The position numbers were made by a program, and so were the translations under genes. This document shows positions 25,766-31,229 of a stretch of DNA of 64,000 bases, piece after piece. Position 1 is the stretch's first letter. Each line of letters begins with the position of its first letter. The notes beneath the pieces are model-generated. The model searched no databases. It was not told where the DNA came from and worked only from the letters and a program-made list of their open reading frames with translations. Source of the DNA: Escherichia coli (lineage in GTDB: Bacteria > Pseudomonadota > Gammaproteobacteria > Enterobacterales > Enterobacteriaceae); NCBI RefSeq assembly GCF_050920415.1, contig NZ_CP169309.1, one strand, 5' to 3'.

Positions 25766-26097
25766 TCGCTTGTCCCGGACTAAGGATTTTAATACATAAA
25801 ATGATGTTCATTCGCTCGTGCTGGCGTCTAAAGAGAGCATGGTAGAGAGCATAAGAAATATCCACGCCGAAGATAAAATTTTCTCCATCGTCATCTAACC
25901 TATTAATTATTGTGCTTAATGTGGGTAAAATTAAGCAAATCTGGCAGGATGTCAGACGTCAAGAATGGAGAACAATAGTTCTCCATTCTTGTTTAAACCC
26001 TGATATTCCGGATATATTAAGAAACATAACGACTTAAATTATTACTTTGCAACAGAATATGATACAGCTGATGGTAATTTTAAAACCTTACTCAGTT

Positions 26098-26346
26098 CTA
26101 AGAGAGCTCGGCTTCCCTGTCATTAATAATGACATCCGTTAGTGTTGTCTTATGCAATTCAATGTACTGCAAAATTTGCAGGTAGAGATCAGAAAGAATC
26201 ACACTCGTTTCATCTTTTAAACGCAAGCGTAAAGCCTGATCAATAATATGACTATTAACATACCCATGCGCCATGAACACCTCCCTCTCGAGATTTTTAA
26301 ATAAAGCACATTGAAAAATAAATCTCTCGGGAATTGAATTATTCAT
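26098..26346 (-). CDS. ymgC: Small regulatory protein YmgC
   Basis: 82-aa ORF in the ycgZ-ymgABC operon position. Confidence 0.8.
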   Translation of the reverse strand: MNNSIPERFIFQCALFKNLEREVFMAHGYVNSHIIDQALRLRLKDETSVILSDLYLQILQYIELHKTTLTDVIINDREAELS

Positions 26347-26466
26347 GTCAGCCTCGTAAAAATATCAATCCAATAGAATTATGCTGTGTATAGTCTAAGC
26401 GACAGACAAAAATAAGATGAATGAGTTTTCTATAAACTTATGCTAGTTATACTAAACAATAAAAAG

Positions 26467-26733
26467 TCACATATCATCAGCTGTGTATCGCAACACGATT
26501 TCCAGTGTTTTTCTAATCACATCAGCTTTGAGAATATCATTCGTTGTTTCCAGGGAGTGTATCAGACTTAAGATAATATTTTTATTATTAACATTATCTC
26601 CTGAAAGCATTAAATTGGTCACCGCCTGCCCTAATACAGCAGACTCTTCTTCTAACAAATTCCCCGAACTGCGAAAGTAACTTGATAACGCCTTATCAGT
26701 TATTGCGTTATGAATAGTAGTATCTTCAAGCAT
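26467..26733 (-). CDS. ariR: Connector protein AriR/YmgB (biofilm and acid-resistance regulator)
   Basis: 88-aa ORF; operon context. Confidence 0.85.
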
Positions 26734-26761
26734 GGTAACCTCTCATCTTACTTATGAAATT

Positions 26762-27034
26762 TTAATGTATTCTGTTTATTTTCTTACCATTGAATATACT
26801 TTTATTGTCAGCTATTGCTGCTCTTCTGTTAGGCCCTCCTGTATCACAGTTGCTAAAATCACGAATTATGCTATCAATTAAATCTCGTCGGAAGGCATTT
26901 TGTTCAACAGATTTCATTACGAGTAATTGCTTAATAAGAGTCTGCAACGAAAAATTTATCTTCATGCGTAATATCTGGAGCACCGCCTGGCCAGTAATTT
27001 CATGTTTTATACTTTCATTATCAGATGTCTTCAT
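26762..27034 (-). CDS. ymgA: Small protein YmgA
   Basis: 90-aa ORF; operon context. Confidence 0.8.
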   Translation of the reverse strand: MKTSDNESIKHEITGQAVLQILRMKINFSLQTLIKQLLVMKSVEQNAFRRDLIDSIIRDFSNCDTGGPNRRAAIADNKSIFNGKKINRIH

Positions 27035-27076
27035 AACGACTTCATAGTTAATCTGTCAAATAATCAGGCTGTCACA

Positions 27077-27313
27077 TTATTCAAAAAGCAACCCAATTAG
27101 TGAATTGTAGTGTTTCTGTTCCTCTTCCCCTGTCGCTTGCTCCAGTCGACAAAGAAGTTTGGTACAAAGCGACTTTCGACTCAGATTACGTCCATCTTTC
27201 AAAATTTCAGTCACAATTTCCCCGAGGGTTTCCTGCTGAGTAGGCAAGTTAGCTTTTGCAAAGTAACGAGTAATTGCCCCCGCAGAATCTGAAATCACTG
27301 AATTTTGCTGCAT
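27077..27313 (-). CDS. ycgZ: Small protein YcgZ
   Basis: 78-aa ORF, first gene of the ycgZ-ymgABC operon, divergent from bluF. Confidence 0.8.
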   Translation of the reverse strand: MQQNSVISDSAGAITRYFAKANLPTQQETLGEIVTEILKDGRNLSRKSLCTKLLCRLEQATGEEEQKHYNSLIGLLFE

Positions 27314-27367
27314 GCTACGCCTCTATTAAAAATGTTAAACGTTGTTAAGTGCAGTAACAATAGCAAA

Positions 27368-27389
27368 CTTGTACGAAATATGTGTACAG
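27368..27389. promoter_or_regulatory. TGTAC-N9-GTACA inverted repeat in the ycgZ promoter region (candidate BluR operator)
   Basis: CTTGTACGAAATATGTGTACAG lies 55-75 nt upstream of the ycgZ start. Confidence 0.45.
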
Positions 27390-27626
27390 AATGATAAATT
27401 ATTTTTTTGCAATTAGTGCTAACACCTATAAAACAATGAGATACGTAAAAATTATTTGCATCATTTGACTGACAACCTATACAAGATTCCAAACGAACTC
27501 ATCTTCAAATTTTTCCATCTTTCATCAATGTAAATAAATAGTTATGTTTTAGTATTAAAAGCAAGACACCAGAAGATATGTCTGTTACCGTCATACTCTC
27601 GCCTCGCCCATTACCCTGGACTATTA

Positions 27627-28838
27627 ATGCTTACTACCCTTATTTATCGTAGCCATATACGTGACGACGAACCTGTCAAAAAAATCGAAGAAATGGTTTC
27701 GATAGCAAATCGCAGAAACATGCGGTCTGACGTAACAGGGATTTTACTGTTTAATGGTTCACATTTTTTTCAACTTCTTGAAGGTCCGGAAGAACAGGTT
27801 CAAATGATTTATCGGGCCATATGCCAGGATCCACGGCACTATAATATCGTTGAACTGCTGTGCGATTACGCACCTGCTCGCCGTTTTGGCAAAGCAGGAA
27901 TGGAATTATTTGATTTGCGCCTCCACGAGCGCAATGACGTTTTACAGGCCGTACTCGACAAAGGCACCTCAAAATTTCAGCTAACTTATGATGACAGAGC
28001 GCTGCAATTTTTTCGTACTTTTGTTCTTTCAACTGAAAAATCAACCTATTTCGAGATTCCTGCCGAAGACTCCTGGCGTTTTATCGCTGACGGACCTGAT
28101 AAAGAACTTGATTCCTGTACCCTTTCACCAAATATAAACGACCACTTTGCCTTTCATCCTATTGTCGATCCTTTATCGCGGCGGATAATCGCTTTTGAAG
28201 CAATTGTTAAAGATAGGGAAGACAGCCCATCAGCCAGAGTGGTTGGGCAAAGCAATGACGGGGAAATCTACACAGCGGATCTCAAAAGTAAGGCACTTGC
28301 ATTCGCGATGGCACACGCACTTGAGCTCGGTGATAAAATGATTTCAATCAATCTATTACCTATGACCCTGGTTAACGAGCCTGACGCGGTCTCTTTTTTA
28401 CTTGATGAAATAAAGGCCAATGGTTTGGTGCCTGAACAAATTATCGTGGAATTTACTGAAAGTGAGGTCATATCTCGGTTTGATGAATTTGCCGATGCTG
28501 TTAAATCACTTAAGGCTACCGGTATGAGTGTAGCAATTGACCATTTTGGCACAGGTTTTGCCGGTTTGTTACTCCTGTCACGCTTCCAGCCTGACAGAAT
28601 TAAAATCAGTCAGGAATTGATTACCAATGTTCATAAAAGCGGGCCTCGGCAGGCAATTATTCAGGCGATCATAAAATGCTGTACATCACTTGAAATTCAA
28701 GTCTCTGCTATGGGTGTGGCAACACCAGAAGAGTGGATGTGGCTTGAATCTGCAGGAATTGAGATGTTTCAGGGAGATCTGTTTGCCAAAGCTAAATTGA
28801 ATGGTATCCCTTCAGTTGCGTGGCCGGAGAAAAAATAA
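27627..28838 (+). CDS. bluF: Blue-light sensor BLUF-EAL protein (YcgF/BluF)
   Basis: 403 aa; N-terminal BLUF motif (YRSHIRDD...LLFNGSHFFQLLEG) and degenerate EAL C-terminal domain. Confidence 0.9.
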   Translation: MLTTLIYRSHIRDDEPVKKIEEMVSIANRRNMRSDVTGILLFNGSHFFQLLEGPEEQVQMIYRAICQDPRHYNIVELLCDYAPARRFGKAGMELFDLRLHERNDVLQAVLDKGTSKFQLTYDDRALQFFRTFVLSTEKSTYFEIPAEDSWRFIADGPDKELDSCTLSPNINDHFAFHPIVDPLSRRIIAFEAIVKDREDSPSARVVGQSNDGEIYTADLKSKALAFAMAHALELGDKMISINLLPMTLVNEPDAVSFLLDEIKANGLVPEQIIVEFTESEVISRFDEFADAVKSLKATGMSVAIDHFGTGFAGLLLLSRFQPDRIKISQELITNVHKSGPRQAIIQAIIKCCTSLEIQVSAMGVATPEEWMWLESAGIEMFQGDLFAKAKLNGIPSVAWPEKK

Positions 28839-28957
28839 TTTTCAGCACATTATTTCACATGATTTCTGGAAATCATCGTGAAAATGAATACGTTATGTTT
28901 TAATTTAATCCACATTAAAAATAATGTTTTATCCAATTTAGCTGAAATCTTATTTAT

Positions 28958-28991
28958 ACTTTGTACAATTTTAGCGTATATTGTACAAAGT
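28958..28991. promoter_or_regulatory. Perfect 11-bp inverted repeat ACTTTGTACAA-N12-TTGTACAAAGT upstream of bluR (candidate MerR-type operator)
   Basis: Seen directly; a third GTGTACAG lies at 29003..29010; about 50 nt upstream of the bluR ATG. Confidence 0.5.
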
Positions 28992-29042
28992 ATTATTGGG
29001 TCGTGTACAGGCGACGGAGATTTATGAGCGCAAGGAGGAATT

Positions 29043-29774
29043 GTGGCTTATTACAGCATTGGTGATGTTGCTGAACGTTGCGGGATTAATCCTGTCACTC
29101 TCCGGGCTTGGCAACGCCGCTACGGTTTGTTAAAACCACAGCGCAGTGAAGGCGGACACCGACTCTTTGATGAAGAAGACATACAACGCATCGAAGAGAT
29201 CAAGCGTTGGATAAGTAATGGCGTCCCTGTAGGCAAAGTTAAAGCATTACTGGAAACCACCAGCCAGGATACGGAAGATGACTGGAGCCGCCTGCAAGAA
29301 GAGATGATGTCAATTCTTCGTATGGCTAATCCTGCCAAACTACGCGCGAGAATTATTTCACTGGGTCGAGAGTACCCGGTAGATCAATTGATTAATCATG
29401 TTTACCTTCCTGTTCGTCAGCGTCTCGTGCTTGATCACAACACCTCCCGCATTATGAGCAGTATATTTGACGGCGCATTAATTGAATACGCAGCAGCCTC
29501 ACTTTTCGAAATGCGCCGTAAGCCCGGTAAAGAAGCCATTCTAATGGCGTGGAATGTTGAAGAGAGAGCACGATTGTGGCTGGAAGCATGGCGTTTATCA
29601 TTGTCAGGATGGCATATTTCTGTCCTTGCTGATCCCATTGAATCGCCGCGCCCGGAACTGTTCCCGACGCAAACATTGATTGTCTGGACTGGCATGGCAC
29701 CAACGAGAAGGCAAAACGAACTATTACAACACTGGGGTGAGCAAGGTTATAACGTCATCTTTCATGCCCCCTAA
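29043..29774 (+). CDS. bluR: MerR-family repressor BluR (YcgE)
   Basis: 243 aa; N-terminal MerR HTH ([30 protein letters not shown]). Confidence 0.9.
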
Positions 29775-29994
29775 TTTCACCTTTATCCCGCCCCTTAGAC
29801 AGAATCTTATAATCTGAACCCACAACAGCGTTTGTACCGGAGCTGATCCGTTGCAAAATGCTCACCGGGAGAATTCAGGTAATCCCCCTTTCACACTTTG
29901 TACATATCACAGCCAAAGGACAGACCAGCTTGAAGTGAGAAAACCGATCGTGCACACTACGCACTCTCACAACTAACAAAAGGTTATTATCCTG

Positions 29995-30399
29995 ATGGAT
30001 CAGGTCGTTGTTTTTCAAAAGATGTTTGAAAAAGTGAGAAAAGAGCAAAACTTCTCCTGGTTTTATTCAGAATTAAAACATCACCGTATTGCACATTACA
30101 TTTATTATCTGGCTACGGATAACATCAGAATTATTACTCACGATGAAACAGTTTTGTTATTAAGAGGAAACCGTAGCCTGTTAAAAGTCAGTACAACCAA
30201 AAATCCAGAAAAAATTAAAGAGGCGGCATTGCTTCATATTTCTGGGAACTCTACATTTTGGGAGTATTGTACAACACTGGCAAGTGCTGGCGTTTTCCGC
30301 TGGGTAACCGATGTTAATAACAATAAACGCGGCTACTACGCTATTGATAATACGCTGTTGTATGTTGAAGATGTGGAAAATAACAAGCCATTAATCTAG
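29995..30399 (+). CDS. ycgX: DUF1398-family protein YcgX
   Basis: 134-aa ORF in conserved position. Confidence 0.8.
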   Translation: MDQVVVFQKMFEKVRKEQNFSWFYSELKHHRIAHYIYYLATDNIRIITHDETVLLLRGNRSLLKVSTTKNPEKIKEAALLHISGNSTFWEYCTTLASAGVFRWVTDVNNNKRGYYAIDNTLLYVEDVENNKPLI

Positions 30400-30594
30400 C
30401 AAAGTTTTAACACATAAGAGAACTATCATAATTCAGTAAAATAACAAAAAAGAGGTCTTTCTATGACTTATCAGAACTCCCTTTTTATTGTTATCCATAA
30501 TTGTTCAGCCGACCAATACTATAAATCTGACATTTGACATGCCTCCTTTGCCGTTCTGATACGTTACTTGTATTACAGTTATCAAACCCACAAA

Positions 30595-30662
30595 TACAAC
30601 GGGCGTGTTATATGCCCGTTCAATACTTAATAGGTATAGCGTTAACATATTCTTGATAGCAT
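30595..30662. repeat. Diverged duplicate of the icd 3' end plus terminator hairpin (icdC-like remnant); left boundary of the islet
   Basis: CAACGGGCGTGTTATATGCCCGTT (26/27 identical to the hairpin at 36911..36934) followed by TTAACATATTCTTGATAGCAT, which matches the last codons of icd. Confidence 0.65.
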
Positions 30663-31229
30663 GTATTGCATACCTCCAGCCTTAGAGTTATCTCCGGCTA
30701 ACTCCACCAAACATGGCTGCACACAGCCAGATAAGAACGCTTGCGCGCATCTGGATATCATACCGCTGCTGGAACTGTTTCTTAATCATCCTACCTTATT
30801 AGACCTATTCGATACTGGCCATTATGAAGGACGCAAAGTAAGCGCTTTTTATGCGTTTTTGCTGAGTTATCATCACGTTACCTTAATATTATCAGGAACG
30901 AGTTAACGCTGCTCATAACGGTCAAACCGATACTATAAAGCCCAATAATTGAAACCTTTTCATCATGTCAGGAAGATAGTCATCCTTATGATCTTTATAT
31001 AAAAAAGCCAACCATGGGGTTGGCAAAGTGGCACAAACCAGCATAAAAGCTATGCTTTGTTTACAAATCTTCTTTGAATTAAATATATATCGTCCTGACT
31101 AAACAGAACTAAAACGGAATGAATTATTTAATCATGTTACTAAATTTCATTTTGTTTAGCCTCTGTTGAGATCCCTTGTTTTAAATTTCATTTAGATAAA
31201 ATTCTTAATTAAATCCTTGGGAGTCAATT

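What the first reader, a model, noticed from the sequence alone, without database searches (positions are those of the whole stretch)
28958..28991. Perfect TGTACA-containing inverted repeat upstream of bluR
ACTTTGTACAA-N12-TTGTACAAAGT is an 11-bp perfect inverted repeat about 50 nt upstream of the bluR ATG, with a third TGTACA shortly after. MerR-family proteins bind palindromes within their promoters, so this is a candidate BluR autoregulatory operator.
Basis: seen in the sequence. Interest (0 to 1): 0.5.

Follow-up and report, generated by a model that had tools for sequence, protein, structure and literature searches.

The report
Conserved self-operator in bluR promoter
A perfect 14-bp inverted repeat carrying the DNA motif recognised by BluR and its paralogue MlrA sits on the E. 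coli bluR core promoter and is conserved in front of this regulator family's genes across many genera, so it is very probably an unreported (auto)regulatory operator, which is an ordinary kind of element but a new link in the blue-light/biofilm circuit.

Summary
The arms are 14 bp (ATACTTTGTACAAT 28956-28969 / ATTGTACAAAGTAT 28980-28993), 10 nt apart, and the bluR start codon is GTG. With the published bluR transcription start (54 nt upstream, window 28989), the repeat spans -33..+5. Its two TGTACA hexamers lie at -27..-22 and -7..-2, flanking and touching the -10 (TATATT).

TGTACA/GTACA is the motif footprinted for BluR at the ycgZ promoter and for MlrA at csgD. An exact TGTACA-N10-15-TGTACA pair lies upstream of the regulator gene in 65 of 81 loci from many genera (0.01 expected). 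These include Erwiniaceae mlrA positional orthologues that have no bluF, so the box travels with the regulator gene and predates the mlrA/bluR duplication.

Within E. coli the arms are near-invariant while adjacent intergenic DNA varies.

The spacing (N14; family mode N13) resembles the MlrA box (N12), not BluR's own ycgZ operator (N7, conserved everywhere). So BluR autorepression is the best reading (about 0.6), but MlrA cross-regulation remains open. A hairpin/terminator, an RcdA box and known RNAs were rejected. No paper I could read reports this operator. It is a new member of a known kind, of moderate interest.

The parts
28956..28969 (.). Left arm of the perfect 14-bp inverted repeat (ATACTTTGTACAAT), -33..-20 relative to the bluR TSS
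28980..28993 (.). Right arm of the inverted repeat (ATTGTACAAAGTAT), -9..+5; contains the bluR TSS
28962..28967 (.). Hexamer 1, TGTACA, at -27..-22 in the promoter spacer
   Evidence: conserved across genera
28982..28987 (.). Hexamer 2, TGTACA, at -7..-2; in most other genera the equivalent TTGTAC serves as the probable -35
29004..29009 (.). Hexamer 3, TGTACA, at +16..+21; polymorphic in E. coli (TGTAGA); occupies the position of the ancestral -10 (TAnnnT) of other genera
28977..28982 (+). bluR -10 hexamer TATATT (-12..-7), lying in the repeat's inner spacer and sharing its last T with hexamer 2
   Evidence: TSS from PMC3509220
28953..28958 (+). Probable bluR -35 hexamer TTTATA (18-bp spacer), abutting or overlapping the left arm
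   Evidence: consensus scan only
28989..28989 (+). bluR transcription start site (primer extension in K-12, 54 nt upstream of the start codon; K-12 is identical here with no indels)
29043..29774 (+). bluR (ycgE) CDS with GTG start; domains are MerR wHTH, MlrA_helical and MlrA_C
27627..28838 (+). bluF (ycgF) CDS, the BluR antagonist; it has its own promoter
27370..27388 (-). Known BluR operator in the ycgZ promoter: TGTACA-N7-CGTACA on the ycgZ strand, at -39..-34 and -26..-21. This is the reference for BluR-type spacing

Best explanation
The repeat is an operator for the MlrA/BluR family that lies across the sigma70 core promoter of bluR. Most likely it is bound by BluR itself and gives negative autoregulation.

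Mechanism proposed:
- Two (possibly three) wHTH domains of a BluR oligomer contact the TGTACA hexamers at -27..-22 and -7..-2, with a facultative third at +16..+21.
- Occupancy covers the -10 hexamer and the start site and blocks RNA polymerase.
- When BluF (blue light, low temperature) strips BluR from DNA, bluR is derepressed together with ycgZ-ymgABC. The resulting rise in BluR re-imposes repression, which is a feedback/adaptation loop.

Shown here or in published work:
- the repeat and its position relative to the published TSS;
- identity of its core with the footprinted BluR and MlrA motif;
- conservation of the hexamer pair in front of bluR and mlrA orthologues across genera and within E. 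coli.

Inferred, not shown:
- that a protein binds here in E. coli, and that the protein is BluR;
- that the effect is repression;
- the feedback logic.
For: 1. The 14-bp perfect arms are far beyond chance.
2. The TSS 54 nt upstream of the start codon (PMC3509220) maps to 28989. K-12 is identical across this region. The -10 TATATT then falls exactly at -12..-7 and the repeat spans -33..+5.
3. BluR footprints on GTACA/TGTAC motifs at PycgZ. MlrA binds AAAGTTGTACA(12N)TGCACAATTTT at csgD, and BluR also shifts the csgD fragment. The K-12 csgD box was verified as TGTGCA-N12-TGTACA.
4. An exact TGTACA-N10-15-TGTACA pair lies within 200 nt upstream of the regulator gene in 65 of 81 loci. Shuffles give 0.01, and only one such pair occurs elsewhere in 666 kb of locus sequence. 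The right hexamer ends 54-55 nt before the start codon in most loci, and flanking sequence is unconserved.
5. The box accompanies the regulator gene in two different genomic contexts: bluF-bluR in Enterobacteriaceae, and mlrA positional orthologues next to yehW-yehX-osmF in Erwiniaceae. That is the classical signature of autoregulation.
6. In the Lelliottia/Huaxiibacter group of loci (L049, L052, L058, L069) the bluR upstream site is TATACA-N7-TGTACA, which is the BluR-type spacing.
7. Extra downstream GTACA hexamers occur in 12 of 31 distinct bluR promoters but in 1 of 37 mlrA-orthologue promoters.
8. Within E. coli, the 38-bp repeat is perfect in 4594 records. The sampled variants hit only the inner spacer or the third hexamer. 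The adjacent 71 bp of the same intergenic region is identical in only 18 records.
9. The BluR model matches full-length CarH, a regulator whose several wHTH domains bind multipartite operators. That makes a 20-bp hexamer separation structurally plausible.
Against: - There are no binding or expression data for this site. None of the papers I could read mentions BluR autoregulation, and the 2009 paper with the ycgE::lacZ fusions was not available.
- The hexamer spacing (N14) differs from BluR's validated operator (N7, conserved in all 33 PycgZ regions examined) and resembles the MlrA box.
- BluR's affinity for the N12 csgD box is lower than for PycgZ.
- Some bluR orthologues (Pseudescherichia, L019/L024/L034) lack the box.
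- E. coli mlrA itself has lost the box, so self-regulation is not obligatory in this family.
- In most genera the right hexamer coincides with the probable -35, so part of its conservation may reflect promoter function rather than operator function.
Confidence: 0.6

Rival explanations
1. The box is an MlrA site rather than a BluR site. MlrA, the sigmaS- and c-di-GMP-controlled activator of csgD, binds the bluR promoter and cross-regulates its paralogue. At -33..+5 that would repress bluR and so derepress ycgZ-ymgAB, coupling the curli cascade to the Ymg/Rcs branch.
For: The spacing and layout are MlrA-box-like: N14 here, N12-13 in orthologues, N12 at csgD, with an A-rich spacer shared by csgD and many family sites. 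The same N13 box sits in front of mlrA positional orthologues in Erwiniaceae, so it is ancestrally an MlrA-type site. BluR's own validated operator is N7.
Against: E. coli MlrA does not keep the box at its own gene. The DNA-binding domains of BluR and MlrA differ at only four HTH residues, and BluR binds the csgD box, so an MlrA-type box does not exclude BluR. bluR-specific remodelling (N7-type sites, extra hexamers) points to BluR. MlrA acts as an activator from far upstream at csgD, not as a core-promoter repressor. No data show that MlrA affects bluR.
Confidence: 0.17
2. In E. coli the hexamers are an evolutionary relic or plain promoter architecture. The right TTGTAC is the ancestral -35, and the pair persists by descent and promoter constraints. 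No regulator occupies it in E. coli.
For: In 47 of 62 distinct sites a TAnnnT lies exactly 17 bp after TTGTAC, so the right hexamer doubles as a -35. E. coli has shifted its -10/TSS upstream, so the ancestral logic may be broken. The third hexamer is polymorphic.
Against: After the promoter shift neither hexamer is a -35 or -10 element in E. coli. Yet both hexamers and the lineage-specific 14-bp arms are perfect in about 92% of E. coli genomes, and the sampled variants avoid the arms. The left hexamer has no promoter role in any lineage but is as conserved as the right one. A perfect palindrome extended to 14 bp is not expected of a decaying relic.
Confidence: 0.1
3. The repeat acts as RNA: a hairpin at the 3' end of bluF read-through transcripts, serving as a terminator or stabiliser that insulates bluR from bluF transcription.
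For: The RNA hairpin is stable (-16.9 kcal/mol, z = -5.8). bluF and bluR are separate transcripts, and no canonical terminator was found between them.
Against: The stem is AU-rich with a 10-nt loop, and the tail is TATTGGG rather than a U-tract. bluR mRNA starts inside the right arm, so it cannot form the hairpin. Across genera only T-TGTACA-A is conserved, loops are 11-14 nt, and flank complementarity beyond 3 nt is at shuffle level. The same box occurs where no bluF lies upstream. There is no Rfam match.
Confidence: 0.05
4. A different regulator with a similar motif binds here, for example the TetR-type RcdA (box TTGTnnACA), which already targets the ycgF/ycgZ spacer and csgD.
For: RcdA sites such as TTGTGTACAttTGTACACAA contain TGTACA, and RcdA regulates bluF. 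An H-NS mark is reported in the bluF/bluR spacer.
Against: TTGTACAAA does not fit TTGTnnACA (sequence). RcdA genomic SELEX listed the ycgF/ycgZ spacer but not the bluF/bluR spacer. Linkage of the box to mlrA/bluR genes across families argues for the cognate regulator.
Confidence: 0.05

Closest known systems
MlrA box at the csgD promoter (Ogasawara et al. 2010; quoted in PMC3509220 and PMC9662190)
   Same: Two inverted TGTACA-type hexamers with T/A flanks (TTGTACA...TGTACAA), separated by more than one helical turn. The spacer is A/T-rich, and it is recognised by the MlrA/BluR type of wHTH. BluR also binds the csgD box in vitro.
   Different: The spacer is 14 nt rather than 12 (family mode 13). 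The site lies on the core promoter (-33..+5) instead of far upstream of the csgD promoter. Both hexamers are perfect and the arms extend to 14 bp. The expected outcome is repression, not activation. Binding by MlrA is untested.
BluR operator in the ycgZ promoter (Tschowri et al. 2012, PMC3509220)
   Same: Same GTACA/TGTACA recognition motif and same locus. It overlaps core promoter elements, and one hexamer sits at about -26/-22 in both promoters.
   Different: The ycgZ hexamers are 7 nt apart (13 bp start to start) at -39..-21, and that spacing is conserved in all genera examined. The bluR pair is 14 nt apart (20 bp start to start) and reaches the start site.
Classical MerR-type autoregulation and operators (MerR, CueR, SoxR: one dyad centred in a 19-20-bp -35/-10 spacer)
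   Same: A MerR-family wHTH protein, a palindrome inside its own promoter region, and a slightly long spacer (18 bp).
   Different: The dyad centre is at about -14.5, not about -23. The element is 38 bp long rather than roughly 18-22 bp. The regulator has MlrA_helical and MlrA_C domains and matches CarH rather than compact MerR dimers.
CarH/CarA/LitR operators (MerR-type wHTH plus helical bundle plus Rossmann-like module; multipartite operators over -35/-10; the antirepressor CarS parallels BluF)
   Same: Three-domain architecture (Foldseek E about 1e-9 to full-length CarH). Repression works by occluding the promoter, with several recognition elements spread over about 26-40 bp. An antagonist protein removes the repressor (comparison made in PMC3509220).
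   Different: CarH binds 11-bp direct repeats as a B12-dependent tetramer (my own knowledge of entry 5C8E; not tested here). Here the elements are palindromic hexamers in inverted arrangement, no cofactor is known, and the oligomeric state of BluR on DNA is unknown.

Membership tests
MlrA box (MlrA/BluR-family operator) | Two TGTACA-like hexamers in inverted arrangement with T...A flanks | tested here: met
   TTGTACAA at 28961-28968 and 28981-28988. The consensus of 35 non-redundant family sites is TTGTACAA-N11-TTGTACAA.
MlrA box (MlrA/BluR-family operator) | 12-nt spacer between the hexamers, as at csgD | tested here: not met
   14 nt in E. coli bluR. Orthologues have N13 (55), N12 (7), N14 (2) and N11 (1). 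csgD is N12. This is a spacing variant.
MlrA box (MlrA/BluR-family operator) | Bound by MlrA (footprint or EMSA) | not testable with these tools
   No binding data for this site were found in the papers I could read.
BluR operator (as defined at PycgZ) | GTACA/TGTAC motifs contacted by BluR | tested here: met
   The motif is present three times. The motif definition comes from the footprint and mutagenesis in PMC3509220.
BluR operator (as defined at PycgZ) | Hexamers 7-8 nt apart (13-14 bp start to start) | tested here: not met
   PycgZ is N7/8 in the window and all 33 orthologous regions. bluR upstream is N14. Only an imperfect TGTACA-N7-CGTATA sub-site exists here, and it is neither conserved in Citrobacter nor fixed in E. 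coli.
BluR operator (as defined at PycgZ) | Overlaps core promoter elements of the regulated gene | tested here: met
   The repeat spans -33..+5 relative to the published TSS.
BluR operator (as defined at PycgZ) | BluR binding that is released by BluF | not testable with these tools
   Needs EMSA or footprinting with purified proteins.
Autoregulatory operator (comparative-genomics criterion) | The candidate site co-occurs with the regulator gene across taxa regardless of neighbouring genes | tested here: met
   65 of 81 loci, in both the bluF-bluR and the mlrA/yehW contexts.
Classical MerR-type operator | A single dyad of about 18-22 bp centred in a 19-20-bp -35/-10 spacer | tested here: not met
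   38-bp element, dyad centre about -14.5, 18-bp spacer.
Rho-independent terminator | GC-rich stem, short loop and a U-tract | tested here: not met
   3 G-C pairs out of 14, a 10-nt loop and a TATTGGG tail. It was not called by the scan, and the hairpin is not conserved.
RcdA box | TTGTnnACA | tested here: not met
   TTGTACAAA mismatches at position 8. The bluF/bluR spacer is absent from the RcdA SELEX lists.

The most novel reading that the evidence does not exclude
The TGTACA-N13-TGTACA box is the ancestral self-operator of the whole MlrA/BluR (CarH-like) family. In most genera it is centred near -41, with its right half doubling as the -35. In the Escherichia lineage a 1-bp longer spacer created a new -10 (TATATT) inside the box. 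That shifted the start site about 27 nt upstream and turned the box into a -10/+1-occluding autorepressor site. BluR would then read two operator geometries, N7 at ycgZ and N13/14 at its own gene. This implies a flexible multi-wHTH oligomer like CarH and gives the blue-light pathway a built-in negative feedback.
Probability: 0.3. Interest if true: 0.55.

Novelty: new member of a known kind. Interest (0 to 1): 0.4.

Why it matters
BluF/BluR/Ymg/Rcs is the model blue-light and cold-signalling pathway of E. coli, and it feeds into curli and biofilm control. BluR is currently described only as the repressor of ycgZ-ymgABC.

An operator on bluR's own promoter would add a feedback loop that sets the BluR:BluF ratio and the dynamics and adaptation of the light response. 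If MlrA binds it, it would be a direct wire between the curli cascade and the Ymg/Rcs branch.

The comparative data also give a family-wide motif definition (TTGTACAA-N13-TTGTACAA, against N7 at ycgZ). That definition can be used to predict MlrA/BluR regulons in other Enterobacterales. It also poses a concrete structural question: how does one CarH-like regulator read two spacings? None of this overturns current models. It is a testable refinement.

Tried and rejected
- Terminator/hairpin reading. The fold is stable, but the tail is poor, the loop is long and the bluR mRNA starts inside the arm. Cross-genus flank complementarity beyond 3 nt is no better than shuffled. Rejected as the conserved function.
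- RcdA box. The pattern does not fit, and there is no SELEX peak in this spacer.
- Known RNA families. None in 26000-31000 at E <= 1, apart from a meaningless snoRNA hit inside bluR.
- Hidden BluR-type N7 sub-site. TGTACA-N7-CGTATA (28962-28980) mirrors E. coli's own PycgZ operator (TGTACA-N7-CGTACA). However, it is absent in Citrobacter and altered in a natural E. coli allele (GCGTAT>GCATAT). I kept it only as a weak possibility.
- mlrA autoregulation in E. coli. There is no hexamer pair upstream of K-12 mlrA.
- Direct evidence in the literature. Tschowri 2009 is not held. Tschowri 2012, Duval 2017, the Salmonella BrfS paper, the V. cholerae MlrA paper, the MerR-family site-correlation paper and the TF-titration paper say nothing about BluR autoregulation. 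The supplements of the 139-TF ChIP-seq compendium are not held.
- Alternative promoter. An RpoD-SELEX paper lists a 'constitutive promoter' pick (TTTAAA-16-AATAAT) and an H-NS mark in this spacer. It is a computational hexamer assignment about 60 nt upstream of the primer-extension TSS. I did not use it for mapping.

Full report
**1. What is in the sequence**

The window is E. coli. It is 100% identical to strain MFDS1022581 and about 96-98% identical to most other E. coli over 28700-29200. The local gene order is ariR, ymgA and ycgZ on the minus strand, then bluF (27627-28838) and bluR (29043-29774, GTG start) on the plus strand.

The reported palindrome is real and longer than described. The arms are 14 nt and perfectly complementary: ATACTTTGTACAAT at 28956-28969 and ATTGTACAAAGTAT at 28980-28993, with 10 nt between them. 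A third TGTACA lies at 29004-29009.

- Single TGTACA hexamers are not enriched in the window (10 found, 12.5 expected).
- Pairs 8-20 nt apart occur only here (2 found, 0.03 expected).
- Only three perfect close-spaced inverted repeats of 14 bp or more exist in the 64 kb.

**2. Position relative to the promoter**

Tschowri et al. 2012 mapped the bluR 5' end by primer extension to 54 nt upstream of the start codon. They showed that bluR, bluF and ycgZ have separate promoters, and they state that bluR is sigma70-dependent.

K-12 is identical to the window from upstream of the repeat to the GTG, with no indels. The start site therefore maps to 28989. With that start:

- the -10 TATATT (28977-28982) falls exactly at -12..-7;
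- a weak -35, TTTATA, lies 18 bp upstream;
- the repeat spans -33..+5, with hexamers at -27..-22, -7..-2 and +16..+21.

Any protein occupying the arms would cover the -10 and the start site.

**3. What the motif is**

The same paper footprinted BluR on the ycgZ promoter. The protected site carries GTACA...GTACA and TGTAC...GTACA motifs, and their mutation abolishes binding and repression. The paper quotes the MlrA site at csgD as AAAGTTGTACA(12N)TGCACAATTTT. It also showed that BluR binds the csgD fragment more weakly than it binds PycgZ.

I verified the K-12 csgD box as TGTGCA-N12-TGTACA. I located the ycgZ operator in the window at 27370-27388. It reads TGTACA-N7-CGTACA on the ycgZ strand, at -39..-34 and -26..-21.

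The hexamer upstream of bluR is thus the recognition element of this regulator pair. RcdA's box, TTGTnnACA, does not fit.

**4. Comparative test**

Using a BluR alignment I retrieved 80 loci from species-representative genomes.

- About 39 loci keep the ariR-ycgZ / bluF-bluR synteny.
- The remaining 41 (Pantoea, Erwinia, Mixta, Izhakiella) lack bluF. Nearly all of them are followed by yehW-yehX-osmF, the context of E. coli mlrA, so they are mlrA positional orthologues. Their proteins are nevertheless closer to BluR (62-67% identity) than to E. coli MlrA (52-57%).

An exact TGTACA-N10-15-TGTACA pair lies within 200 nt upstream of the regulator gene in 65 of 81 loci. Shuffles give 0.01, and only one pair occurs elsewhere in 666 kb of locus sequence. 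The spacing is N13 in 55 loci, N12 in 7, N14 in 2 and N11 in 1. In most loci the right hexamer ends 54-55 nt before the start codon, and the surrounding sequence is unconserved.

The non-redundant consensus is TTGTACAA-nnAAAAAnnAn-TTGTACAA.

The box therefore travels with the regulator gene through two different genomic contexts and predates the mlrA/bluR duplication. That is the standard comparative signature of an autoregulatory operator. E. coli mlrA itself has lost the box.

**5. The complication: spacing**

In the window and all 33 orthologous ycgZ promoters examined, the BluR operator is TGTACA-N7/8-TGTACA. Upstream of bluR the spacing is N11-14.

The own-promoter box is therefore MlrA-box-like and differs from BluR's validated operator. 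This is why the identity of the binding protein stays open.

Points that favour BluR:
- BluR binds the N12 csgD box.
- The Lelliottia/Huaxiibacter group of loci (L049, L052, L058, L069) has a TATACA-N7-TGTACA site upstream of bluR, which is the BluR-type spacing.
- Extra downstream GTACA hexamers occur in 12 of 31 distinct bluR promoters but in only 1 of 37 mlrA-orthologue promoters.

Points that favour MlrA, or both proteins:
- the spacing itself;
- the ancestry of the box as an MlrA-type site.

**6. A promoter shift**

In 47 of 62 distinct family sites a TAnnnT hexamer lies exactly 17 bp after TTGTAC. In most genera the right hexamer is therefore probably the -35, and the dyad is centred near -41.

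E. coli and Citrobacter lack that -10. E. coli has its third TGTACA there. E. coli also has the best inner -10 of all sites (TATATT, 5/6), which agrees with its experimentally mapped, more upstream start site.

So in E. coli the same box lies over -10/+1. The promoter assignments for the other genera are inferences from sequence only.

**7. Variation within E. coli**

- The 71 bp covering the promoter, the repeat and the third hexamer is identical in 4202 of 4971 records.
- The adjacent 71 bp of the same intergenic region is identical in only 18 records, and megablast could match it in only 1972.
- The 38-bp repeat is perfect in 4594 records.
- Of 4969 records matching 28950-28999, 377 carry one mismatch.

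The three variant alleles I inspected change the inner spacer (GCGTAT>GCATAT, TTTTAG>TTTCAG) or the third hexamer (TGTACA>TGTAGA). None changes the arms. Three alleles is a small sample.

**8. Could it be RNA?**

The hairpin is stable (-16.9 kcal/mol, z = -5.8). Several points argue against RNA as the conserved function:

- The bluR mRNA starts inside the right arm.
- The tail is not U-rich, and the terminator scan does not call it.
- In other genera only T-TGTACA-A is conserved, with 11-14-nt loops.
- Flank complementarity beyond 3 nt is at shuffle level.
- No Rfam family matches.

A minor role at the 3' end of bluF read-through transcripts cannot be excluded.

**9. Protein architecture**

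BluR consists of MerR_1 (residues 4-71), MlrA_helical (81-154) and MlrA_C (162-238).

- Its DNA-binding domain is closest by sequence to CarH/LitR.
- An AlphaFold model (pLDDT 80.8) matches full-length CarH across all three domains (Foldseek E about 1e-9). Its C-terminal part matches CarH-type B12-binding modules (TM about 0.5).

A compact MerR coiled-coil dimer would not easily span hexamers 20 bp apart. A CarH-like oligomer that displays several wHTH domains plausibly could. This is an analogy, not a demonstration.

**10. Verdict**

Operator status is strongly supported by position, motif identity and phylogenetic footprinting.

BluR autorepression is the most likely mechanism (about 0.6). 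MlrA cross-regulation is the main rival.

I found no report of this operator or of BluR autoregulation in the papers available to me.

The element is a new instance, and a spacing variant, of a known operator type in a well-studied circuit. It is a useful and readily testable finding of moderate interest.

Noticed in passing
L018-L080 (Erwiniaceae loci), about 60-110 nt upstream of the TGTACA pair, e.g. L027 3851-3900: A second conserved palindrome-like element, (C)TCTCATATATGAGA(T), often with a partial upstream copy (CCTCTCAT...GGGAA), lies upstream of the mlrA-orthologue box in Pantoea, Erwinia and Mixta. Its binding factor is unknown. It may belong to the divergent neighbour.
   Followed up: no
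window 29004-29009: The third TGTACA is polymorphic in E. coli (TGTAGA in AH21H052, PMV-1 and 22KM0354). It sits exactly where other genera have the probable -10 (TAnnnT) of the ancestral promoter.
   Followed up: partly
L083 9780-9800 (K-12 mlrA upstream): E. coli mlrA has only a lone TGCACA followed by an A-rich tract (TGCACAAAAAACGGGCAAAAC). This may be a relic of the family self-box, which E. coli mlrA has otherwise lost.
   Followed up: partly
window 27395-27440 and the ycgZ-bluF spacers of L001-L077: A conserved TAGCACTTTTTGCTAAA-like element lies upstream of the ycgZ operator in many genera. It corresponds to the published MarA marbox at about -62 of PycgZ.
   Followed up: yes
L049, L052, L058, L069 (Lelliottia/Huaxiibacter group), about 60-80 nt upstream of bluR: Here the bluR upstream site is TATACA-N7-TGTACA, the ycgZ-type spacing, instead of N13. 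A further TGTACA lies 40-75 nt upstream. This suggests lineage-specific remodelling of the self-operator.
   Followed up: partly
L019, L024, L034 (Pseudescherichia vulneris, Escherichia sp. ESNIH1, UBA7338): The bluF-bluR gap is only about 65 nt and carries no TGTACA pair. bluR is probably co-transcribed with bluF there, so the self-box has been lost in that lineage.
   Followed up: no
window 25960-25991: A perfect 14-bp inverted repeat, CAAGAATGGAGAAC-N4-GTTCTCCATTCTTG, lies downstream of the ymgC end of the ycgZ-ymgABC operon. It is probably that operon's terminator.
   Followed up: no
window 28898-28925: An RpoD-holoenzyme SELEX study assigns a 'constitutive promoter' (TTTAAA-16-AATAAT) and an H-NS mark to the bluF/bluR spacer. 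That is about 60 nt upstream of the primer-extension start, so there may be a second bluR promoter or H-NS silencing relevant to cold induction.
   Followed up: no
Proteins of L018-L080 compared with K-12 MlrA (L083 9867-10598): The mlrA positional orthologues of Erwiniaceae are more similar to E. coli BluR (62-67%) than to E. coli MlrA (52-57%). This implies accelerated divergence of enterobacterial MlrA after the duplication.
   Followed up: partly
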